From a bacterium (GTDB lineage: Bacteria; NPL-UPA2; JAUVJM01), in contig JAUWGW010000006.1 in NCBI GenBank assembly GCA_030606215.1, positions 2,207 to 66,206 of the forward strand: a stretch of 64,000 bases of DNA. Direction: 5' to 3'. The position numbers were made by a program, and so were the translations under genes. Below, piece after piece: positions 55,149 through 64,000 of the stretch (its first letter is position 1; each line of letters begins with the position of its first letter). Below the pieces are notes generated by a model. It did no database searches. It was not told the origin of the DNA and worked only from the letters and a program-made list of their open reading frames with translations.

Positions 55149-56465
55149 CTATTTTGGCGCCATACAAAAATCTTTTGCTTTCGCCAGGTCTTCGGGTATC
55201 AAAAATCTTACAGTTGTTCGTTCAATAGCACGCTCACCTCGGAGTGCTAAATTTAAGCAATAAGCTTTGTCAGGTTTATATGTGCCAATGAAACTCCTAA
55301 GGGATTTGCTTATCTTGAATTCTCTTAAATCAACAGCTTTGACTTCAAAAGGAATGGGTTTGAGACTTGGAATCACAAAGTCTACTTCTGCGCCAGCCTT
55401 GGTCCGCCAAAAGTTTATGGGACTTGAATACTTCAAGCGCTCGCCCAAACAAAGGTAGGAGAAATTCTCAAAAAGGCTGCCCTTATCAGGGCGAAATTCG
55501 AAATCCCCAAAGCTTCCGATAGCAAAATTTCTTATACCGTGGTCACGAAAATAAACCTTAGGGCTTTTCAAGAGTTCTTTCCTGGGATTTCTATGAAAAG
55601 GTTTTACAAAATCCAGGATAAAGGTTTGTTCCAAATAAAACAGGTAGTGTTCTAGTGTATTCTTATGGATACTCAAAGTGTTGGAGAGCTCATGCTTATT
55701 TACCAGATTTCCTATTTGCGAAGAAAGAATCTTAACAAGGTTGCGGAATGCCTCTTCGTTTTCGATGTTAAGAAAAGACTTGATATCCTTCTCGATGTAA
55801 CTTTGGAATATCTCTTTGAGAAGCTGCAGTTTTAAATCTTCTTCCTTGGCCAGAGCAACTGCAGGGTATCCTCCATATGTGACATAATGATTCAAAACTC
55901 TTCTAAAGTCCTCTTTTTTCTCTATGACTTCATTGACACTCTTCCTTGGGAATAGGGCCTGAGAAAGTTCTTCCAGGTTGAAAGGATTAAGACGAAAAAC
56001 TACCTTTCTTCCAGTAAGAGCTTCATGAATTTTGCTTCTAATCTCCAGTGAACTTGAACCTGAGACTATCAGTTTAGCTGGTAGGTGAAGATCATAAATA
56101 CCTTTTAGAAATAAACCCGGTTCCTTTAAACGTTGAACTTCATCAATCAACACGTAGGACTTCCTTTTTGATTTGATTATTAAATCAACCAAATAATCCG
56201 GATTATCAAAAAACTGAAGCTGATGAGGAACATCAAGGTTAAAATAGTATATGTTGTCAGTCTTCGGGAGAAGGGCATCGTTTATTAACTGATAAAGGAG
56301 AACACTTTTTCCGGTTTGGTGAGCACCAGTAACAATAATTATTTCTTCTCTCTCAATCCATGGTGCTATTTTCTCTTTTATCTTACGCTGAACTACCTGG
56401 GGTGGCAGCTTTACCCCAAGCCTTTCCAACTCCTTTTTCTTTTTGCTATATCTCATTTTTGCCAT
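55149..56465 (-). CDS. AAA+-type ATP-binding protein with C-terminal DUF4143-like domain
   Basis: 438 aa. Walker A IIIVTGAHQTGKSVLLYQL and Walker B LIDEVQRL. The C-terminal region is typical of the ATPase+DUF4143 family often found next to R-M and defence genes. Confidence 0.7.
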   Translation of the reverse strand: MAKMRYSKKKKELERLGVKLPPQVVQRKIKEKIAPWIEREEIIIVTGAHQTGKSVLLYQLINDALLPKTDNIYYFNLDVPHQLQFFDNPDYLVDLIIKSKRKSYVLIDEVQRLKEPGLFLKGIYDLHLPAKLIVSGSSSLEIRSKIHEALTGRKVVFRLNPFNLEELSQALFPRKSVNEVIEKKEDFRRVLNHYVTYGGYPAVALAKEEDLKLQLLKEIFQSYIEKDIKSFLNIENEEAFRNLVKILSSQIGNLVNKHELSNTLSIHKNTLEHYLFYLEQTFILDFVKPFHRNPRKELLKSPKVYFRDHGIRNFAIGSFGDFEFRPDKGSLFENFSYLCLGERLKYSSPINFWRTKAGAEVDFVIPSLKPIPFEVKAVDLREFKISKSLRSFIGTYKPDKAYCLNLALRGERAIERTTVRFLIPEDLAKAKDFCMAPK

Positions 56466-56895: not shown

Positions 56896-57732
56896 TCATA
56901 CTCTGACTTTTCCACTTAATAATACCTGCGTCAAACCTTTCTTGATATCTTCCAATCTTTCCTCATGAACAATTTCCTTATTTATTTCTTCATCAACAGA
57001 TGACAAAATTTCAGCAATCTTTTCCTGTTCGGCAAGAGTGGGAAGAGGAATTTTTGTCTTCTTAAACTTCTTATGGCCGATTCCGCGGGTCAGCAATTCC
57101 TGCATCAACCCCCTTTTTAGCTCTTTCGTCTTTTCTATGATCTCCTTCCTTTTCTCAATTGCCTCATCTACGGTTGATAGGATCTTGGCGATCTTTTTTT
57201 GTTCGGGCAGAGGTGGAAGGGGTATTACAATTCTCTCAATGCTTTTTCCACTAACATTAGGCTGTGCTCCGCCGGCAGCATCTATGAGCAAATCTTCTTT
57301 GAACCTTTTCGTCAACACTACCTGTCCTAAATATCTCTTTGCAATACGGTTTGAATCTTCAATCATAAATCTGCCAACACGTTGGTTAAGCAATGCTGGT
57401 AGGTCTTTCTTTGAAACAACCCCTATTTTTCCGGTTGTTGCACCGGACATAGCAACAAGTACATCCCCATCTTCAAGCAGAAAATCACTAAATTCCTTAG
57501 CAAAAGAGGCTGGAAGATATACACATTCATTTAACATAATCCCACTAGAGGTTACATTTGATATTCTGACTAAAGGCACACCTCTTCCTTTATAATCGCT
57601 ACTTTCAAAAGCGAATCCTCCCTGGAGACGTACTGTTTCCCCAAGATTGACAATTTCCCAATCCACTGGAATCTCGCCAATCTCCGTTTTCTTAAATTTG
57701 TCTTCGGTTCTTAAGCTATCTGCTTGTACCAC
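56896..57732 (-). CDS. hsdS: Type I restriction-modification specificity subunit, single-TRD (half-size) form
   Basis: 278 aa. One variable target-recognition domain followed by the conserved helical spacer, IPLPPLPEQKKIAKILSTVDEAIEKRKEIIEKTKELKRGLMQELLTRGI. A second conserved repeat (IPLPTLAEQEKIAEILSSVDEEI...) follows and the protein ends without a second TRD. Confidence 0.8.
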   Translation of the reverse strand: MVQADSLRTEDKFKKTEIGEIPVDWEIVNLGETVRLQGGFAFESSDYKGRGVPLVRISNVTSSGIMLNECVYLPASFAKEFSDFLLEDGDVLVAMSGATTGKIGVVSKKDLPALLNQRVGRFMIEDSNRIAKRYLGQVVLTKRFKEDLLIDAAGGAQPNVSGKSIERIVIPLPPLPEQKKIAKILSTVDEAIEKRKEIIEKTKELKRGLMQELLTRGIGHKKFKKTKIPLPTLAEQEKIAEILSSVDEEINKEIVHEERLEDIKKGLTQVLLSGKVRV

Positions 57733-58768
57733 TTTTGGCTCCCAAGACCCTGGTTATAAAGTTCTGGAATTCTTTCTCATATTTTTCAGCAGTAATATTG
57801 ATGTACGGAGCAGGAGGTAAGTCAAGACCGCTTGCCAAAAATCCAATACTGATTCCCTCCATCGCCTGACGCAGCTTTGAACTCCTCATATAATCTGACC
57901 CGGTTTTTTGAATATCGGCTAAGACATTCCACACATCTGTCAGCGCAGCGTAGAGTGAAATCCAATCAACCCAAAGCGGCTTTTTCGCATCTTCGTATTC
58001 CATTCCACAGAGAAATTCCCACCACCTTTTCTCTGGCAGCCAATACTCTATCTTCCGTTTACCTTTAATGCGCGTAAGCACTAAACCTGATTCTGCAAGT
58101 TCAATCAATGCATCCTGTGTTCCCCGAACAGACAGGCCGATTGCCTTAGCTACTTCGGAAGGATGTCCTGCGCCGTAGACTAAAAGATACAAAATACATT
58201 CAGAGCGTGAACCTATACCAAACATTGCTCTCAACAGAAAACGGATGGTGTTTCCTGCCATGACCGGTACGGGCTTCGACGTTTTCCGCACCGTAAAACT
58301 TTCGCGCAAAAATCCGTATTCTTTGAATATGTTTGATTCCGTAACCGGTTTTGGGTAGGGCTTTCCTTCTTTCGTTTTGAAAAGCATTTCGTCCTGCGTA
58401 CTTGTTTTAGCTCTATGGAGCAATGCTAAAGTCTTCCATTTACGCTGGTATGTTCCTGCCTCGCGCGACAGAAAACAAGCAACCGCGCTCATAAGTCGTT
58501 GCGTTCTTTCATCTTTCTGTTTCATAATTCCGCGCAGGCGCTGAATATCAATCCACTTTCCGTTTACAACAAGCCAGTCGAGTATCTCATCAAAGAAGCG
58601 TGGCTCGTACCGACCCATTTCCAGTGAAAAGAGAAGGAGAGCTTCCAGATCGATCGCCCATTCATGCTTTGAGCGCGCACCACCTGCTACACCCAGGGCA
58701 GACCACTGCCCCCAGAGAAAATCTAAAACTTCCTTCAGAAAGAATTCCCTAAAGTTTATCTGCGACAT
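57716..58768 (-). CDS. Hypothetical 350-aa protein with central winged-helix DNA-binding-like segment, embedded between hsdM and hsdS
   Basis: A wHTH-like segment ECILYLLVYGAGHPSEVAKAIGLSVRGTQDALIELAESGLVLTRIKGKRKIEYWL lies at about residues 200-255. No HEPN R-x4-6-H motif. Overlaps the upstream NTase gene by 20 nt. Confidence 0.5.
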   Translation of the reverse strand: MSQINFREFFLKEVLDFLWGQWSALGVAGGARSKHEWAIDLEALLLFSLEMGRYEPRFFDEILDWLVVNGKWIDIQRLRGIMKQKDERTQRLMSAVACFLSREAGTYQRKWKTLALLHRAKTSTQDEMLFKTKEGKPYPKPVTESNIFKEYGFLRESFTVRKTSKPVPVMAGNTIRFLLRAMFGIGSRSECILYLLVYGAGHPSEVAKAIGLSVRGTQDALIELAESGLVLTRIKGKRKIEYWLPEKRWWEFLCGMEYEDAKKPLWVDWISLYAALTDVWNVLADIQKTGSDYMRSSKLRQAMEGISIGFLASGLDLPPAPYINITAEKYEKEFQNFITRVLGAKSGTSR

Positions 58769-59354
58769 CTTTGTAACCTATTTCTTTAAGAAAATCCTTA
58801 AGGACTTTTCTGTAACCCTCGGAAATGTCATGTGTCATACTCCAACGAGCCGCTTTTTCTAATTCCTCTGCAATAGGTTTTAATGCAAGTAGGTCACCGT
58901 AATGAACATCACCTCTATCCCGATCTACTACAGCATAGAGCTTAAAATGAATCTGGTCATACCGGCTGAGAAAGTGAATTGTTAGATTCTTTCCATAAGT
59001 ACGGGTTTCCACCCTATCCATAAGACCGTCAGGCAATCCTAAATCCATAACAGACGCCGGTCCGGGATTAAGCCAGTTGTCGGTCAAATCAAAATCTTTC
59101 TGCACTCTCGTGGCTGCATCCTCAACTGCAGGATTCATAGGTTTGGTGGCTTTGACTAAAGTAATAGAGCCGTCACTCTTCTTATCTACAAATGCGACAA
59201 CATCCACGTCTTCGGTAACACGGCTCACGTACCCCAATATATTGAGAGCTGCCCCTCCGCACACAACCATTTCGCAGTGCATCACCCCCCGCACTTCCAG
59301 TTGCTCGGCGAGTGCTGTGAGTACAGATTCTATTTGTTGTTTGCCTTCAAACAT
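58749..59354 (-). CDS. AbiEii-like (DUF1814-type) nucleotidyltransferase-fold protein, short form; putative toxin-like NTase
   Basis: 201 aa. MVVCGGAALNILGYVSRVTEDVDVVAF fits the AbiEii/NTase-fold motif (GGTAL ... R.S.DIDh), i.e. a Gly-rich loop followed by a DxD acidic pair. It starts 3 nt after the hsdM stop. Confidence 0.5.
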   Translation of the reverse strand: MFEGKQQIESVLTALAEQLEVRGVMHCEMVVCGGAALNILGYVSRVTEDVDVVAFVDKKSDGSITLVKATKPMNPAVEDAATRVQKDFDLTDNWLNPGPASVMDLGLPDGLMDRVETRTYGKNLTIHFLSRYDQIHFKLYAVVDRDRGDVHYGDLLALKPIAEELEKAARWSMTHDISEGYRKVLKDFLKEIGYKDVADKL

Positions 59355-59356
59355 GC

Positions 59357-60844
59357 TTACACCCTATAACGCAATTCTCTTAAATAGCCTGACACCTTCC
59401 TATCAATATTTTTATATTCTTCCTTGAGTTTCTTCAGGTCATCGATAGTTTTCTGAATATCAATGTTCTCTTCTTGTTCTGTAACATCAATATATCGTGT
59501 GATGTTAAGGTTGTGGTCGTTCTCCCTTATTTCATTAATCCGTACAGGACGACAATACTTATCTATCGTGCTATATTCTCCAAAGGCTGATACAATTTTC
59601 TCAATGTCTTCTTTACGCAGCTTATTCTGCTTCTTTCCCTCTTGATAGTCGCCTGCACCGTAAAGGAAGAACGCCTTTCCTCTCCTCTCTTTAGGCTTGT
59701 CTCTGTTGATTATGAACAAGCACGCAGGAATGCCCGCGCCATAGAATAACTTAGGTGGCAAGCCTATGACGCCTTCAAGGAGGTCTTCTTCGACTATACC
59801 CTTTCTAATCTTTCCTTCTGCCCCTCCGCGGAATAAGACTCCATGCGGTAGGACAACACCGACTCTCCCTTTAGGGTTCGCAATAGCTATCATGTGCTGG
59901 ACAAATGCGTAGTCACCGTATCCCTTCGGAGGTATCCCGAACCTGAACCTTTTGTAGGGGTCATTCTGAGCATTTTCATAGCCCCAATTCTTGAGTGAAA
60001 AAGGCGGATTTGCTATTACAATATCAAATTGCATTAGTTGTCCCTTGGTGAGCAGCTTAGGTTCCCGTAAGGTATCAGCTCTCCGGATCTTTGCACTTTG
60101 TAATCCATGAAGGAGCAGATTCATCTTGCAGATTGCCCATGTCCCAACATTGATCTCCTGACCATACAGAGCAATGTTCTTAGGATTTTGCCCCTTTCCC
60201 TGTAAGTGGCACACGGATTGTATCAACATTCCACCTGAACCACACGCAGGGTCACAAATTCTCATTCCTTCTTTCGGATCCAGAATGTCTACTAATAGCT
60301 CAACAACCTCCTTGGGTGTATAGAACTCCCCTCCTTTCTTGCCAGCGCTTGAAGCAAATTGGGCGATAAGATATTCATATGCATCACCCAGGATATCGGG
60401 TTTCTCCAAATCTTCATTTCTCAACCTAATTTTGGAGAAGTGGTTGATAAGCTGGGAAAGTATATGGTCCGGCAGCCGGTCTTTATCGTTAAAGTCAACA
60501 GCAGAAAGAACGCCTTCCAGAGTTTCCGGGTTTTCTTCTTCCAAGGAGTCGTTTGCTTTGTTGATAGCTTCACCTATGTTCTGGGTCAGTGATTTAAGAT
60601 AATCCCATCGCGCCCTTTTGGGAACGAAAAAGTCGTGATAATCGCGGTCTTCATACGCAATCTTTTTGCTGCCTGTCTCATGTAGTATTCTCTCAACCTC
60701 TTCGTCAAACACGTCGGATAATCGCTTCAAAAACAAGAGCCCGAAAATGTAATTCTTGTAATCTGCGGCGTCAATATGACCCCGCAGAATGTCCGCGGAT
60801 GCCCAGAGGTGATACTTCAGGGCTTGCGAGTTTACCTTTTCCAT
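59357..60844 (-). CDS. hsdM: Type I restriction-modification DNA methyltransferase subunit (N6-adenine)
   Basis: 495 aa. N-terminal HsdM_N-like region, AdoMet motif I MRICDPACGSGGML and catalytic motif IV IVIANPPFS. AAGGAAAGG RBS. Confidence 0.9.
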   Translation of the reverse strand: MEKVNSQALKYHLWASADILRGHIDAADYKNYIFGLLFLKRLSDVFDEEVERILHETGSKKIAYEDRDYHDFFVPKRARWDYLKSLTQNIGEAINKANDSLEEENPETLEGVLSAVDFNDKDRLPDHILSQLINHFSKIRLRNEDLEKPDILGDAYEYLIAQFASSAGKKGGEFYTPKEVVELLVDILDPKEGMRICDPACGSGGMLIQSVCHLQGKGQNPKNIALYGQEINVGTWAICKMNLLLHGLQSAKIRRADTLREPKLLTKGQLMQFDIVIANPPFSLKNWGYENAQNDPYKRFRFGIPPKGYGDYAFVQHMIAIANPKGRVGVVLPHGVLFRGGAEGKIRKGIVEEDLLEGVIGLPPKLFYGAGIPACLFIINRDKPKERRGKAFFLYGAGDYQEGKKQNKLRKEDIEKIVSAFGEYSTIDKYCRPVRINEIRENDHNLNITRYIDVTEQEENIDIQKTIDDLKKLKEEYKNIDRKVSGYLRELRYRV

Positions 60845-60867
60845 GAGAGGTTCCTTTCCTTATGTGC

Positions 60868-60921
60868 TGTATATTTACTTACTACGTAAGTAAATATACA
60901 ACATGTTAGGAGAGTTGTCAA
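60868..60921 (-). promoter_or_regulatory. hsdM promoter (TTGACA-17nt-TATATT) with an overlapping perfect 15-3-15 inverted repeat (tgtatatttacttac-tac-gtaagtaaatataca), a putative operator
   Basis: On the minus strand: TTGACA (plus 60916-60921), a 17-nt spacer, TATATT (plus 60893-60898). The palindrome spans 60868-60900 and overlaps the -10 and the TSS. It ends 24 nt upstream of the hsdM ATG. Confidence 0.45.
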
Positions 60922-61313
60922 GTTTTATTTCTTATCTGTATAGTTTGACTGCACTAACAGTGAGGATAAACTATAATAAGAGGGATATTATTCGCTTTGA
61001 AAAATACCGCTCTTCTCTCTTAGGCTAATATGACCATGCGGTGTAACTATGATGTGGTCTATCGCCGTAATACCAACCGCAAGGCATGCTGAAATGATAA
61101 ACTTAATCTAAGAGATAAAAATACTTTTTCTTACATAAAACGAGCCTTTCCATAGTAAAGGTTAGTAGTGACTACCTTCTACGAAAATTGTTCTGACGAG
61201 AAAATTTCATTTACCGTCTAAGCAATTTCCGGAAAGTCCCGCGACGGTAATTATAGGGATTTGTGGATATGCATTGGATTCGGGGTCCGGGACGACCCCG
61301 ACTACCTGTGATG

Positions 61314-61403
61314 TGGCGGAGAGGCCGGGATTCGAACCCGGGGTGGAGTTGCCCCCACAACTGCTTAGCAGGCAGCTGCCTTCAACCGCTCGGCCACCTC
61401 TCC
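61314..61403 (-). tRNA. tRNA-Ser (anticodon GCU), class II with long variable arm
   Basis: Reverse complement is GGAGAGGTGGCCGAGCGGTTGAAGGCAGCTGCCTGCTAAGCAGTTGTGGGGGCAACTCCACCCCGGGTTCGAATCCCGGCCTCTCCGCCA. Perfect 7-bp acceptor stem, T-arm CCGGG-TTCGAAT-CCCGG, anticodon loop CU-GCU-AA, encoded CCA. Confidence 0.85.
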
Positions 61404-61611
61404 TGATCTGGTTACCAAGTAGGCTGTGTTATTCTCCCACATTTAACTTACGTCTGTCAAACAAAATTTATTGGAAGTGTGGGAAGTGAGTTATGGTTGG
61501 TGGCAGGATTCAGTACAGATGATTATGGAGAGGATAGCTCAGGCAATTGTTAGATTAGGCTAATAAAGGACCGATTATTGTATTTGACATAAAGCCGAAG
61601 GTAAATTTAAG

Positions 61612-61640
61612 TTGACAAAATTATATTTGTATGTTTTAAT
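61612..61640 (+). promoter_or_regulatory. Putative sigma70 promoter (TTGACA-17nt-TTTAAT) for the abiEi-like gene
   Basis: Read directly: ttgaca aaattatatttgtatgt tttaat. It lies about 30 nt upstream of the AAGGGGGG RBS and ATG 61671. Confidence 0.35.
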
Positions 61641-61670
61641 TCTTAATAGATACCTAAGGGGGGTATGTAA

Positions 61671-62450
61671 ATGGCTTCAAAAAATACTATTTTAACGGAA
61701 AAACGGCTCAAAGATATTGAGGATATTATTGCTTCTTTTGGTCGAATTGTATCCACTGACGATGTTTATAAGACTTTAGGCGGAAAATACTCAAAATTTG
61801 TCCTAAAGAAAAGGATATACGAGTTACGAGAAAAAGGGTGGCTTATCCCTTTAAAAAGGGGGCTTTATTTTATCTCGGATATTTCTTCACGTGGTTTTGT
61901 GAATATCTCGCCTTTTATCATTGCCAGTGCTTTTGATAAAAATTCTTATATTTCATTAGATTCGGCTTTAAGTTTCTATGGTCTCTTTGAGCAGATGCTA
62001 CGCACGACTTCATCTGTAACCAGCCTTAAGTCCAAAAAATACGTATTTCAGGATAACACTTATCGATATCTCAAGATAAACAAAAAACTATATTTTGGTT
62101 TTAGAACTGAAAATTTGGAAGGCTATTATGTCAAAGTAGCAGAGCTTGAAAAGGTAGTTTTGGATTACCTCTATTTTAAGAATGACACCTATTCCATAGA
62201 TTTGTTGTTAGAGAAACTACAAGAGGCAAAAGATAGGCTCGATTTTAAGAAACTCTTTAATTATGCACGAAAATTTCCCGAAACAACCAAGAGAAAATTA
62301 GGATTTATTTTAGATTTATTTAAAATAGATACCGAAGAGCTGCACAAGGATGTAGAAATGAAAGGCTATAGTAAGCTTACTCCCAATTCAAAAAAATTTA
62401 ACGCAAAATGGAGGCTTTATTATGAAGATAGATTTACTGGACAGGTCTAG
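61671..62450 (+). CDS. AbiEi-family (type IV toxin-antitoxin antitoxin-like) protein
   Basis: 259 aa. The N-terminal region ...IVSTDDVYKTLGGKYSKFVLKKRIYELREKGWLIPLKRGLYFISD fits the AbiEi_4 wHTH pattern (L..L...G.L..L.RGLY). Confidence 0.55.
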   Translation: MASKNTILTEKRLKDIEDIIASFGRIVSTDDVYKTLGGKYSKFVLKKRIYELREKGWLIPLKRGLYFISDISSRGFVNISPFIIASAFDKNSYISLDSALSFYGLFEQMLRTTSSVTSLKSKKYVFQDNTYRYLKINKKLYFGFRTENLEGYYVKVAELEKVVLDYLYFKNDTYSIDLLLEKLQEAKDRLDFKKLFNYARKFPETTKRKLGFILDLFKIDTEELHKDVEMKGYSKLTPNSKKFNAKWRLYYEDRFTGQV

Positions 62451-62571
62451 GCTTGAGATTTTAAATAAACGCGGCCCCAGATACCACTTACAGGATGCCG
62501 AAAAAGATTATTTTTTATCGGTGATTCTTAGCTCTGCTCAGAATGACGGGAGATTGTTTCCCCCGTATTAA
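62422..62571 (+). pseudogene. AbiEii-like nucleotidyltransferase toxin gene reduced to a 49-codon N-terminal stub
   Basis: ATG at 62422 overlaps the abiEi-like gene end. It encodes MKIDLLDRSRLEILNKRGPRYHLQDAEKDYFLSVILSSAQNDGRLFPPY* (AEKDYxLxxIL is the typical AbiEii N-terminus). It stops before the NTase core and runs into the convergent uvrA 3' end. Confidence 0.4.
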
Positions 62572-62599: not shown

Positions 62600-64000
62600 T
62601 CACATTTTCAGCCGCATAACTTTTCTTAAAAATTTCCCTGTGTAGGACTTGTCAACCCCGGCAACTTTTTCTGGCGTTCCTTCAGCTACAATCCAGCCGC
62701 CTTCATCCCCTCCTTCCGGGCCGAGGTCAATAATATAGTCGGCTGTTTTGATGACATCCAGATTGTGTTCAATAACGACAACAGTATTCCCTGCATCGGT
62801 AAGCCGCGCCAGCACATTCAGGAGTTTATCAATATCTGCAAAATGTAAGCCGGTTGTCGGCTCATCAAGGATGTAAAGTGTTTTCCCCGTGCTTTTCTTA
62901 CTGAGTTCTTTTGAAAGTTTCACTCTCTGCGCTTCACCTCCCGAGAGAGTTGTAGCTGATTGCCCAAGCTTTATGTAGCCCAGTCCGACATCGTAAACAG
63001 TCTGCAGTTTCTTCTTTATCTGGGGAATATTCTTGAAGAATTCAAGATTCTCCTCCACTGACATTTCAAGAACATCAGCAATATTTTTCCCTTTATAACG
63101 GATCTCAAGTGTTTCTCTGTTGTAACGCCTTCCTTTACACTCCTGGCATCTGACATAGACATCCGGGAGAAAATGCATTTCAATTTTTATGATACCACCT
63201 CCCTGGCAATTCTCGCATCTCCCCCCTTTCACATTAAAACTGAACCTGCCGGGTTTGTAACCGCGCATCCTTGCTTCAGGGACACGAGAGAGAAGCTGCC
63301 GTATGAAAGCAAATACTCCTGTATACGTAGCCGGGTTAGAGCGGGGGGTTCTCCCAATGGGGGACTGGTCTATCACTATAACCTTATCAATATGCTTAAC
63401 TCCCAGGAGACGATCGTGCTCACCGGGTTTAGCATGAGATTTGTATAAAATCTGGTTGAGGGCTTTGTGCAGGATTTCATCGATAAGTGTGCTTTTACCG
63501 GAACCTGATACTCCGGTAACACATGTAAGGACCCCTACCGGTATGCGCACATCAATATTTTTAAGATTGTTTTCCCTTGCTCCTTTTATAGTGATAAATT
63601 TAGCGCCAGTTGCTCTTCGCTTCTCGGGTATTCTAATGGAAAGTGCACCTTTTAGATATTTCCCTGTTAGAGACCTGCTGCATCTCAAAATCTCGGAGAG
63701 TTTGCCGCAGGCAACTACTTCGCCTCCACTCAACCCTGCTCCAGGTCCAAGGTCAATTATGTAGTCTGCACTGCGGATTGTCGTCTCATCATGTTCCACG
63801 ACAATAACTGTGTTTCCCAGATCCCTCAATTGACGCAGAGTCTTGAGGAGCCTGCGGTTATCTCGCTGATGAAGACCAATACTCGGCTCATCCAGTATGT
63901 AGAGAACTCCCGCAAGTCCTGAACCAATCTGTGTTGCCAGGCGAATACGTTCTGCTTCACCTCCGGAAAGTGTTCCTGCGGCTCTATCCAGCGTCAGATA
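62600..64000 (-). CDS. uvrA: Excinuclease ABC subunit A, C-terminal ~465 aa; 5' part lies beyond the window edge
   Basis: The minus frame is open to the window end. Zn-finger CxxC pairs (CENCQGGG...CQECKGRRY), Walker [11 protein letters not shown] and the ABC signature [12 protein letters not shown] are present. The revcomp of 63830-64000 continues ...[16 protein letters not shown]... The track's 63829 is an internal Met. Confidence 0.9.

What the first reader, a model, noticed from the sequence alone, without database searches (positions are those of the whole stretch)
60868..60921. Near-consensus hsdM promoter overlapped by a perfect 15-3-15 palindrome (putative operator)
On the minus strand the sequence reads TTGACA-17 nt-TATATT, followed by AAGGAAAGG-8 nt-ATG. 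The 33-bp inverted repeat tgtatatttacttac/tac/gtaagtaaatataca spans the -10 and the predicted transcription start. Such a precisely symmetric site overlapping the core promoter is characteristic of dimeric repressor operators, including controller-protein or antitoxin-mediated autoregulation of R-M and TA operons. Candidate binders are the wHTH protein at 57716-58768 or the AbiEi-like protein at 61671-62450.
Basis: seen in the sequence. Interest (0 to 1): 0.5.

Follow-up and report, generated by a model that had tools for sequence, protein, structure and literature searches.

The report
Start-site palindrome in hsdM promoter
A perfect 33-bp hairpin-forming palindrome really does sit on the start site of a restriction-modification gene promoter, but related sequences show it is kept as a self-pairing structure rather than a fixed protein-binding site, and the better candidate for a conserved operator lies about 50 bp further upstream.

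Summary
On the minus strand, TTGACA-17-TATATT (11 of 12 consensus positions) precedes AAGGAAAGG-8-ATG of hsdM. A perfect 15-3-15 inverted repeat (60868-60900) covers the -10 and is centred on the predicted start site. It is the only perfect repeat with arms of 10 bp or more in the 64 kb window.

The operator interpretation is only partly supported. The promoter belongs to a mobile cassette found in many phyla: radC-hsdM-DUF6036 nucleotidyltransferase-350 aa winged-helix protein (p350)-hsdS-hsdR. The window copy is decayed.

Across about 45 relatives the conserved cis-element is a different inverted repeat, TATAGTTT-N21-AAACTATA (60939-60975), just upstream of the -35. It occurs only where p350 is encoded, so it is the likelier p350 site.

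The start-site palindrome exists only in the closest relatives. There it keeps self-complementarity while arm length (15-20 bp), loop and spacing change, with compensatory double substitutions. p350's recognition helix stays nearly invariant (two conservative changes, in L081). The AbiEi neighbour belongs to a separate, truncated module beyond a tRNA gene.

My best reading (about 0.35) is a structure-dependent element. Read-through transcripts would fold a hairpin next to the ribosome-binding site, while promoter-initiated transcripts start in the loop. An unidentified repressor, a cruciform or a mutational by-product remain possible.

The parts
60916..60921 (-). -35 hexamer TTGACA of the hsdM promoter
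   Evidence: Sequence and promoter scan. TTGAC(A) is found at the equivalent place in nearly all p350-encoding relatives.
60893..60898 (-). -10 hexamer TATATT, 17 nt after the -35; it lies inside the left arm of the palindrome
   Evidence: A TAnnnT hexamer at 17-18 nt spacing recurs in relatives.
60868..60900 (.). Perfect 15-3-15 palindrome (TGTATATTTACTTAC-GTA-GTAAGTAAATATACA on the minus strand). The centre of symmetry is at 60884. The predicted start site is 60885-60887, so promoter-initiated RNA would begin in the loop.
   Evidence: Close relatives have 18-3-18 (L081), 19-3-19 with a flipped loop (L216), 16-3-16 (L082) and 20-4-20 (L084).
60854..60914 (.). Imperfect outer extension of the palindrome. 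On the sense RNA the upstream CUCUCCU would pair with AGGAAAG of the ribosome-binding site.
   Evidence: Repeat finder: 29-nt arms, 83% complementary. RNA and DNA folds pair UCCU with AGGA.
60853..60861 (-). Shine-Dalgarno-like AAGGAAAGG, 8 nt before the hsdM ATG (60844-60842)
60939..60975 (.). Upstream inverted repeat TATAGTTT-N21-AAACTATA. The proximal half-site ends 17 nt before the -35. This is the conserved candidate operator of the cassette and the probable p350 site.
   Evidence: Single match in the window, 0 expected by chance. Same motif, spacing and distance to TTGACA in relatives from many phyla. Absent where p350 is absent.
59357..60844 (-). hsdM, type I methyltransferase subunit
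   Evidence: Pfam, PADLOC MTase_I 2e-166, NCBIfam hsdM.
58749..59354 (-). DUF6036 nucleotidyltransferase, distantly AbiEii-like; conserved second gene of the cassette
   Evidence: Pfam DUF6036 2e-09 and AbiEii 3e-04. Present after hsdM in relatives.
57716..58768 (-). p350, a 350-aa protein with a central winged helix-turn-helix (about residues 185-245); the candidate regulator of the cassette promoter
   Evidence: No curated family match. AlphaFold model with pLDDT 86; Foldseek matches only ArsR/MarR-type winged-helix domains. 438 homologues with E <= 0.001; the 120 listed are 54-88% identical to it.
56896..57732 (-). Half-size hsdS (278 aa). It matches target-recognition domain 1 of the L081 HsdS at 91% plus the C-terminal conserved region; the second recognition domain is deleted.
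   Evidence: Pfam Methylase_S; BLAST against the L081 HsdS.
60991..61089 (-). Remnant of radC: only the last 33 codons remain, 97% identical to L081 RadC
   Evidence: tblastn. A full radC precedes hsdM in relatives.

Best explanation
The palindrome is a lineage-specific, structure-dependent add-on to the promoter of a mobile type I restriction-modification cassette. It is not the cassette's conserved operator.

Shown:
- The promoter (TTGACA-17-TATATT) is conserved across relatives.
- The upstream inverted repeat TATAGTTT-N21-AAACTATA is the element that travels with the embedded winged-helix protein p350.
- Within the window's own sub-clade the start-site palindrome is preserved as self-complementarity while its sequence, arm length, loop and internal spacing change.

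Inferred mechanism:
- The symmetry centre falls within a few bases of the predicted start site.
- A transcript initiated at this promoter therefore starts in the loop, carries only the right arm, and has an open 5' leader.
- A transcript arriving from upstream carries both arms. Upstream sources are radC (with its own TGGTATAAT promoter in L081 and L082) or, in the window, whatever lies beyond the radC remnant.
- Such a transcript would fold an 18-20 bp hairpin that abuts or includes the ribosome-binding site.
- The hairpin would thus mark read-through RNA for poor translation or for double-strand-specific processing. Expression of hsdM and the genes behind it would then depend on the regulated promoter.

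In the window the cassette is decayed: radC is truncated, hsdS is halved and hsdR is absent. The outermost stem positions have begun to lapse, so the element may be a relic there.
For: Conservation as structure:
- Window: 15-3-15, then T.G and two more pairs.
- L081: 18-3-18.
- L216: 19-3-19, with loop TAC, the reverse complement of the window's GTA.
- L082: 16-3-16 with loop TTC. Positions 15 and 16 of the arm are changed on both sides (T.A to G.C, and C.G to T.A). The spacer and leader flanks are roughly half diverged, yet the inner 14+14 nt are unchanged.
- L084: 20-4-20. It aligns as the same element with 7 central bases missing and further double changes. The two GTATATTT/AAATATAC cores are then 8 nt apart instead of 15, which a rigid dimer would not tolerate.
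- L035: an unrelated 15-6-15 palindrome covers its own -10 (TAAACT), ribosome-binding site and ATG.

Position: the centres of the three strong families lie at about +1.5, -2 and +1 relative to the predicted start site (derived).

Folding: read-through RNAs form the hairpin at -29 to -42 kcal/mol, against -2 to -13 for promoter-initiated RNAs. The unpaired probability of the ribosome-binding region falls from 0.66 to 0.30 in L084 and from 0.30 to 0.12 in L035, but only from 0.57 to 0.49 in the window.

Single-sided changes: the two seen in the stem (window position 16; L216 CUCUUCU) are both C-to-U opposite G, which keeps a wobble pair in the sense RNA.

No cassette protein tracks the palindrome:
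- p350's helix is nearly invariant.
- HsdS of L081 and L082 are only 37% identical although the inner palindrome is the same.

Read-through is plausible. No terminator-like site lies in 60300-61800, and radC has no conserved promoter or motif of its own.
Against: - No transcript data: the start site is predicted, not mapped.
- In the window, sequestration of the ribosome-binding site is modest.
- Most relatives (L001-L034, L207, L220, L224) manage without any such hairpin, so it is not essential to the cassette.
- L211 (11-2-11) and L218 (8-0-8) have palindromes centred inside the -10 whose right arm would not be transcribed. The RNA model does not explain these.
- The flipped loop in L216 shows that the arms interact at the DNA level. 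Templated correction between arms could therefore keep them complementary without selection for RNA pairing.
- Perfect palindromes across the -10 and +1 are classically repressor sites.
- Only about four distinct sequence variants of the window-type element were recovered, too few for a statistical covariation test.
Confidence: 0.35

Rival explanations
1. It is an operator for an unidentified symmetric repressor that is neither p350 nor AbiEi. The repressor would sit over the -10 and start site and block RNA polymerase, as the first reader proposed in general terms. The binder could be a host factor or a lineage-specific cassette gene such as the 229-238 aa PLD-like protein found between hsdS and hsdR in L081 and L084.
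For: - The location and dyad symmetry are those of classical repressor sites.
- There is precedent for transcriptional control of type I systems: RptR binds three TAGCTA motifs overlapping the -10 of an hsdM operon (PMC12255303).
- AbiEi-type regulators use long inverted repeats separated by 3 bp (PMC7319586).
- The inner 14+14 nt are unchanged between the window and L082 although the flanks are about half diverged.
- The PLD-like p229/p238 gene occurs only in the two palindrome lineages whose hsdS-hsdR interval was recovered, and in no other fetched locus.
Against: - The spacing between the conserved cores differs by 7 bp between the window type and L084.
- Complementarity is kept out to 18-20 bp from the centre, beyond the reach of an ordinary helix-turn-helix dimer. 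It is kept by double substitutions at positions a protein need not read.
- L035 carries a wholly different palindrome at the same place.
- No small helix-turn-helix ORF exists in the cassette or in the radC-hsdM spacer.
- p229 shows no DNA-binding domain and matches a candidate defence gene (PDC-S05). It is absent from the window.
- The half-site is found nowhere else in the window.
Confidence: 0.25
2. It has no dedicated function. It would be a by-product of template-switch (fold-back) mutation that repeatedly copies the -10 region in inverted orientation next to itself, tolerated because the early leader is unconstrained and kept perfect by correction between the arms.
For: - The loop is GTA in the window and L081 but its exact reverse complement TAC in L216. 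That is one flip event rather than three substitutions, and it shows arm-to-arm interaction in DNA.
- The element grows and decays within one sub-clade: 7-bp arms in L207, 15-20 bp in others, none in L217 and L224.
- Leader length is unchanged (67-77 nt from -35 to ATG), as expected for replacement rather than insertion.
- All five palindrome centres, including the short ones in L211 and L218, fall inside the region melted in an open complex (-11 to +2).
- Most relatives lack the element.
Against: - The right arm (14 nt with no promoter role) shows zero changes against about 50% divergence of neighbouring non-coding sequence between the window and L082. This argues for constraint.
- Strong palindromes arose at the same position in at least three sequence families.
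- A stable hairpin over a promoter is unlikely to be neutral.
Confidence: 0.18
3. It acts at the DNA level. Under negative supercoiling the palindrome would extrude as a cruciform, or form hairpins in the melted bubble, removing the -10 from duplex form. That would make the promoter sensitive to superhelicity, for example just after the cassette enters a new cell.
For: - The arms are perfect and AT-rich and the loop is 3-4 nt, which is favourable for extrusion. Single-strand DNA fold: -13.9 kcal/mol, z = -5.4.
- The centres coincide with the region opened by RNA polymerase.
- The flipped loop shows DNA-level pairing at least on evolutionary time.
- It also accommodates the -10-centred palindromes of L211 and L218.
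Against: - Arms of 15-20 bp rarely extrude in vivo at physiological superhelicity (general knowledge, not tested here).
- The window's T.G and L216's U.G positions are tolerated in RNA but are mismatches in DNA.
- There is no direct evidence.
Confidence: 0.12
4. One reading: the palindrome is the operator of the 350-aa winged-helix protein or of the neighbouring AbiEi protein.
For: - Both proteins have winged-helix domains.
- AbiEi operators are inverted repeats separated by 3 bp that overlap a promoter.
- p350 follows an AbiEii-like nucleotidyltransferase, so an AbiE-like autoregulatory pair is conceivable.
Against: - p350's recognition helix and wing are nearly identical across lineages with different palindromes or none (two conservative changes in L081). 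Its co-occurring motif is the upstream repeat.
- AbiEi is divergently placed about 770 bp away, beyond tRNA-Ser, with a truncated toxin partner.
- No AbiEi was called on the retrieved stretches (5.9-11 kb) of L081, L082 and L084, which carry the palindrome.
- No copy of the half-site lies upstream of abiEi.
Confidence: 0.07

Closest known systems
RptR-controlled type I restriction-modification islands (enteropathogenic E. coli; PMC12255303)
   Same: - A type I R-M operon with an embedded toxin-like module.
- It is transcribed from one promoter upstream of hsdM.
- That promoter carries symmetric repeats over the -10.
- A dedicated regulator is encoded in the island.
   Different: - RptR is a 9-kDa four-helix protein encoded as the first ORF. 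It binds three 6-bp TAGCTA motifs.
- Here there is no small upstream ORF and no TAGCTA.
- The candidate regulator is a 350-aa winged-helix protein encoded third in the operon.
- Its conserved motif lies upstream of the -35.
- The element over the -10 is a single long hairpin-forming palindrome that varies between close relatives.
AbiEi/AbiEii type IV toxin-antitoxin autoregulation (S. agalactiae AbiEi, M. tuberculosis Rv2827c; PMC7319586)
   Same: - A winged-helix protein is paired with a nucleotidyltransferase.
- Inverted repeats lie at the promoter.
- The 3-bp gap between arms matches the 3 bp between the two 23-bp AbiEi repeats.
- The widely spaced upstream repeat resembles the 13-bp-spaced Rv2827c sites.
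   Different: - Gene order is reversed: the nucleotidyltransferase comes first.
- p350 matches no AbiEi model.
- The nucleotidyltransferase is DUF6036, with only a marginal AbiEii score.
- The pair is embedded in an hsdM-hsdS-hsdR operon.
- The start-site palindrome does not track the winged-helix protein.
Controller (C) proteins and C-boxes of type II restriction-modification systems
   Same: A dedicated transcription factor with symmetric operators times and limits expression of a restriction system carried on mobile DNA.
   Different: - C proteins are helix-turn-helix proteins of roughly 80-100 aa (from memory). They are encoded just upstream of the endonuclease gene and bind paired operators in front of their own gene.
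- No such ORF or operator arrangement is present here.
Leader hairpins that occlude a ribosome-binding site only in longer transcripts
   Same: A stem whose 3' arm lies next to or over the Shine-Dalgarno sequence. Its formation depends on whether the 5' arm is part of the RNA.
   Different: This comparison rests on general knowledge, not on a curated family. Here the 5' arm coincides with the -10 of an internal promoter, so the choice of promoter would decide folding. I found no described example of that arrangement in the searches made.

Membership tests
Sigma-70-type promoter | -35 TTGACA and -10 TATAAT-like hexamers spaced 16-18 nt apart, at a suitable distance from the gene | tested here: met
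   11 of 12 consensus positions with a 17-nt spacer, 77 nt from the -35 to the ATG. The same architecture is conserved in about 40 relatives.
Sigma-70-type promoter | An experimentally mapped transcription start | not testable with these tools
   No transcript data. The start at 60885-60887 is predicted from the position of the -10.
Dimeric-repressor operator | Dyad-symmetric site overlapping the core promoter | tested here: met
   15-3-15 palindrome spanning the -10 and the predicted +1.
Dimeric-repressor operator | Half-site sequence and spacing conserved wherever the cognate binder is conserved | tested here: not met
   Core spacing is 15 nt in the window and 8 nt in L084; arms range from 15 to 20 bp; L035 and L211 have different sequences; most relatives have none. 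All cassette proteins are conserved throughout.
Dimeric-repressor operator | An identifiable cognate DNA-binding protein, and further copies of the site | tested here: not met
   No second copy in the window. No small helix-turn-helix ORF. p350 and AbiEi are excluded on comparative grounds.
AbiEi operator (type IV TA) | Paired inverted repeats in the promoter of the abiEi-abiEii operon itself, bound by the AbiEi encoded just downstream | tested here: not met
   The palindrome precedes hsdM. The window's abiEi is divergent, about 770 bp away beyond tRNA-Ser. No AbiEi was called on the retrieved stretches of L081 (6.8 kb), L082 (5.9 kb) and L084 (11 kb), which carry the palindrome.
RptR regulon | A small (about 9 kDa) rptR ORF preceding hsdM, and TAGCTA repeats over the -10 | tested here: not met
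   No TAGCTA in 60850-60990 (read). The radC-hsdM spacer of 115-145 bp holds no ORF. Features taken from PMC12255303.
C-protein/C-box control of R-M | A small helix-turn-helix C gene upstream of the endonuclease gene, with C-boxes in front of it | tested here: not met
   Gene lists of the window and of complete relatives show none.
Intrinsic terminator | G+C-rich stem followed directly by a T run | tested here: not met
   0 terminator-like sites in 60300-61800. The stem is A+T-rich and is followed by GCACATAAGG.
Single-strand (Frpo-type) promoter hairpin | The fold-back reconstitutes both the -35 and the -10 in a duplex stem | tested here: not met
   Even the extended arms start after the -35 (60914), so only the -10 would be in duplex form.
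Known RNA family (Rfam) | A match at the gathering score | tested here: not met
   Only sub-threshold microRNA-precursor matches (27.7 bits against 93, and 24.5 against 84), as expected for any long hairpin.
Complete type I R-M system | hsdM, a full-length hsdS and hsdR all present | tested here: not met
   hsdM is present. hsdS has lost its second recognition domain. An AAA_14/DUF4143 gene, not hsdR, follows hsdS, and the nine largest ORFs between 51699 and 63829 were screened with no HsdR-type hit. Relatives carry a 1016-1017 aa hsdR.

The most novel reading that the evidence does not exclude
Start-site-centred palindromes are a protein-independent device by which mobile defence cassettes tell their own promoter's transcripts from read-through transcripts. 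The same DNA gives an open leader when transcription starts in the loop, and a hairpin that silences the ribosome-binding site when transcription comes from outside. This would insulate a potentially toxic restriction operon from whatever genomic context it lands in. It would work alongside a previously undescribed embedded winged-helix regulator (p350) that binds TATAGTTT-N21-AAACTATA upstream of the -35.
Probability: 0.3. Interest if true: 0.65.

Novelty: new variant of a known kind. Interest (0 to 1): 0.45.

Why it matters

This locus points to a second, unrelated arrangement that is spread across many phyla:
- an embedded 350-aa winged-helix protein with a conserved, widely spaced inverted repeat upstream of the -35;
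- in some lineages, an additional hairpin centred on the start site.

If the hairpin separates promoter-initiated from read-through RNA, it would be a simple and portable way for horizontally moving, potentially toxic operons to stay independent of their insertion context.

If it is only a repressor site or a mutational by-product, the finding is ordinary. The practical lesson would be that the conserved operator is 50 bp away from the eye-catching palindrome.

Tried and rejected
- **HsdS or methyltransferase binding to its own promoter.** Rejected: L081 and L082 share the inner palindrome, but their HsdS proteins are only 37% identical.
- **AbiEi as binder.** Rejected.
- **p350 as binder of the palindrome.** Rejected on the near-invariance of its recognition helix.
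- **Terminator.** None found.
- **Frpo-type single-strand promoter.** The -35 lies outside the stem.
- **Antisense promoter from the mirrored -10.** The best -35 candidate at the right spacing is GAGGTT (read), so this is not credible.
- **Rfam.** Only spurious sub-threshold hairpin matches.
- **E. coli genomes.** No match.
- **Metagenome scan with TATAGTTTATCCTCAC.** 120 hits, almost all chance. Only L166 (a copy of the L081 type) was useful. L168 and L190 carry the motif in a different context that looks phage-like from its ORF translations.
- **Viral-contig scans.** None gave anything usable for hsdM relatives, the palindrome or p350.
- **Source contig.** The window's own p350 (P0001) could not be traced to a contig.
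- **PDB sequence search with p350.** No meaningful hit.
- **Formal pair counting.** Not run. MAFFT placed a 2-nt gap in L082's right arm and broke the register, so compensatory changes were read directly from the sequences.
- **DUF6036 in the paper library.** No paper found.
- **IR motif upstream of radC.** Searched for and not found.

Full report
**1. Observation**

On the minus strand the window reads as follows:
- TTGACA (60921-60916), then a 17-nt spacer, then TATATT (60898-60893).
- The -10 is embedded in TGTATATTTACTTAC-GTA-GTAAGTAAATATACA (60900-60868).
- Then GCACAT, AAGGAAAGG (60861-60853), 8 nt, and ATG (60844).

The ORF is a type I HsdM. The promoter scan scores 11 of 12, the best site in the region. 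The inverted repeat is perfect, and the repeat finder extends it imperfectly to 29-nt arms. With one T.G mismatch the stem runs to 18 bp.

It is the only perfect inverted repeat with arms of 10 bp or more in the 64 kb window, and block shuffles never exceeded 12-bp arms. Folded as single-stranded DNA it gives z = -5.4. The half-site has no other copy in the window.

**2. Context**

The operon downstream of the promoter is:
- hsdM;
- a DUF6036 nucleotidyltransferase, with a marginal AbiEii score;
- a 350-aa protein with no family match (p350);
- a 278-aa hsdS;
- then an AAA_14/DUF4143 gene, and no hsdR.

Upstream on the same strand lies tRNA-Ser(GCU), at 61314-61403. Beyond it, on the other strand, lies a true AbiEi (PADLOC 1e-33). 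It is followed by a 49-codon stub that looks like a truncated AbiEii start.

Relatives of HsdM at 66-95% identity come from many phyla, among them Aminicenantes, Omnitrophota, Desulfobacterota, Nitrospirota and Elusimicrobiota. They show the intact cassette: radC-hsdM-nucleotidyltransferase-p350-hsdS-(variable gene)-hsdR.

The window copy is decayed:
- Only the last 33 codons of radC remain (61089-60991).
- hsdS has lost its second recognition domain.
- hsdR is gone.

**3. What is conserved at the promoter**

I anchored about 40 upstream regions on the -35. TTGACA, a 17-18 nt spacer and a TAnnnT hexamer recur throughout, which is good comparative support for the promoter.

A second element recurs 13-17 nt upstream of the -35: TATAGTTT-N21-AAACTATA. 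The start-to-start distance is exactly 29 nt in at least 15 loci. In the window this element is at 60939-60975 and is unique, with 0 expected by chance.

Almost every locus with a p350 gene on the contig and at least 150 bp of upstream sequence has this motif, its proximal half, or a TATAGT/ACTATA variant (four have only looser variants). None of about 48 loci that lack p350 has it; these are the Bacillales-type relatives, the viral hits and L031.

In the Elusimicrobiota sub-clade the p350 recognition helix differs (FWLSxHQAL instead of SVRGTQDAL), and the motif is rearranged into compact or direct copies of the same TATAGT/ACTATA core. However, L224 and L002 have a third helix type with the usual motif, so this correspondence is only suggestive.

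p350 has a confident model (pLDDT 86). Its only structural matches are ArsR/MarR-type winged-helix domains at residues of about 185-245. I infer that the upstream repeat, not the palindrome, is p350's site. This rests on co-occurrence, which is confounded with phylogeny.

**4. The palindrome in relatives**

It is absent from L001-L034, L220 and L224, and only a 7-bp stem remains in L207. It is present in the closest relatives:

| Locus | HsdM identity | Palindrome | Note |
|---|---|---|---|
| window | - | 15-3-15 | loop GTA; 18 bp with one T.G |
| L081 (and L166) | 94% | 18-3-18 | loop GTA |
| L216 | 95% | 19-3-19 | loop TAC, the reverse complement of GTA |
| L082 | 89% | 16-3-16 | loop TTC |
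| L084/L085 | 82% | 20-4-20 | different arms |

- **L082.** Arm positions 15 and 16 are changed on both sides. The spacer and leader flanks are about half diverged, yet the inner 14+14 nt are unchanged.
- **L084.** It aligns as the same element with 7 central bases missing and further double changes, so the two GTATATTT/AAATATAC cores are 8 rather than 15 nt apart.
- **Unrelated palindromes at the same place.** L035 has 15-6-15, including the ribosome-binding site and ATG. L211 has 11-2-11 and L218 has 8-0-8; both of these are centred in the -10.

The three strong families are centred within 2 nt of the predicted start site.

**5. Who could bind it**

- **p350.** Its helix and wing are nearly identical in the window, L081, L082, L084 and L211, so it cannot account for the different palindromes.
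- **HsdS.** It does not track the palindrome.
- **AbiEi.** It is not part of the cassette.
- **A small regulator.** No such ORF exists.
- **p229/p238.** This PLD-like gene matches PADLOC PDC-S05. It occurs only in L081 and L084/85/86 among all fetched loci. That makes two lineages, possibly with one common ancestor, and the protein has no evident DNA-binding domain. This is a lead I could not follow.

**6. Mechanism**

The element is preserved as complementarity while spacing, arm length and loop change, and it is kept out to 18-20 bp. I therefore favour a structure-dependent role.

The placement of the centre at the start site suggests the following:
- Promoter-initiated RNA begins in the loop and lacks the left arm.
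- Read-through RNA carries both arms. It could come from radC, which has its own TGGTATAAT promoter-like sequence in L081 and L082 and no terminator.
- Read-through RNA would fold a hairpin that abuts the ribosome-binding site (L084), partly includes it (window type, UCCU with AGGA) or fully includes it (L035).

The predicted effect on accessibility is clear in L084 and L035 but small in the window. I give this reading 0.35.

Rivals:

| Rival | Confidence |
|---|---|
| Unidentified repressor | 0.25 |
| By-product of fold-back mutation, supported by the flipped loop and the growth and decay of the element | 0.18 |
| DNA cruciform or bubble hairpin | 0.12 |

**7. Comparison with known systems**

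The nearest described system is RptR control of type I islands (PMC12255303). The regulator and its sites there are different. AbiEi operators share the 3-bp gap geometry (PMC7319586), but the membership tests fail. C-protein control, terminators, Frpo-type promoters and Rfam families were tested and not met.

**8. Verdict**

The feature is real and non-random, and the promoter call is sound. The operator reading is not excluded, but the named binders are very unlikely. The conserved candidate operator lies at 60939-60975. I rate it as a new variant of a known kind, with moderate interest (0.45).

Noticed in passing
window 61314-61403 (-): tRNA-Ser(GCU) lies between two defence modules. The hsdM cassette is about 390 bp downstream on the same strand, and an AbiE module lies on the other side. 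This looks like a tRNA-associated defence island. No integrase or att repeat was searched for.
   Followed up: partly
window 61671-62450 (+) and 62422-62571 (+): A true AbiEi antitoxin (PADLOC 1e-33) is followed by a 49-codon ORF that looks like the start of AbiEii and then stops, so this appears to be a decayed AbiE module.
   Followed up: partly
window 62600-63829 (-) and 55149-56465 (-): There is a mad3-like ATPase (PADLOC 2e-67; a 1157-aa relative sits upstream of hsdM in L028) and a PDC-S01 AAA_14/DUF4143 ATPase (9e-88). These are further defence-island genes flanking the cassette.
   Followed up: no
window 60991-61089 (-); 56896-57732 (-): The cassette is decayed. radC is reduced to its last 33 codons. 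hsdS is a single-domain form, made of recognition domain 1 of the L081 HsdS joined to the C-terminal conserved region. hsdR is missing.
   Followed up: yes
window 61211-61250: An imperfect 24-nt-arm palindrome containing TTCCGGAA lies about 60 nt downstream of the tRNA-Ser 3' end and is followed on the minus strand by a short T-rich run. It could be the tRNA terminator or an attachment-site remnant.
   Followed up: no
L081:5989-6678, L084:7383-8099: A 229-238 aa gene with an HKD/PLD-like motif (HDRFYVID...GASLN; PADLOC PDC-S05 7e-20) lies between hsdS and hsdR. It occurs only in the two palindrome-bearing lineages whose contigs reach that far, and in no other fetched locus or the window.
   Followed up: partly
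L216:643-722 compared with window 60883-60885: The palindrome loop is TAC in L216 and GTA in the window and L081. These are exact reverse complements, a loop flip that implies pairing or template switching between the arms in DNA.
   Followed up: partly
L084:2816-2850; L007, about 163 nt before hsdM: A second A+T-rich palindrome (GAGTATTTTCAA-AAA-TTGAAAATACTC, and a 10-3-10 version in L007) sits at the radC stop codon, just upstream of the conserved repeat.
   Followed up: no
L209:1700-1930, L211:930-1150: In two relatives the leader between the promoter and hsdM is about 150 nt longer. It holds other repeats: a G+C-rich hairpin in L209 and AATTAGCG-type direct repeats in L211. These look like insertions of small repeat elements.
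   Followed up: no
L168:8620-8660, L190: The TATAGTTTATCCTCAC...GTTAAACTATA motif also occurs between small ORFs of a contig that looks phage-like from its ORF translations (a large methyltransferase-like ORF, a sigma-factor-like ORF and a cell-wall-hydrolase-like ORF; no family search was run), with no hsdM or p350 nearby.
   Followed up: partly
L081:680-700, L082:550-575: An extended -10-like TGGTATAAT lies about 90 nt upstream of radC in the window-type lineage. Upstream regions of radC are otherwise unrelated between loci, which suggests the cassette's left edge is at radC.
   Followed up: partly
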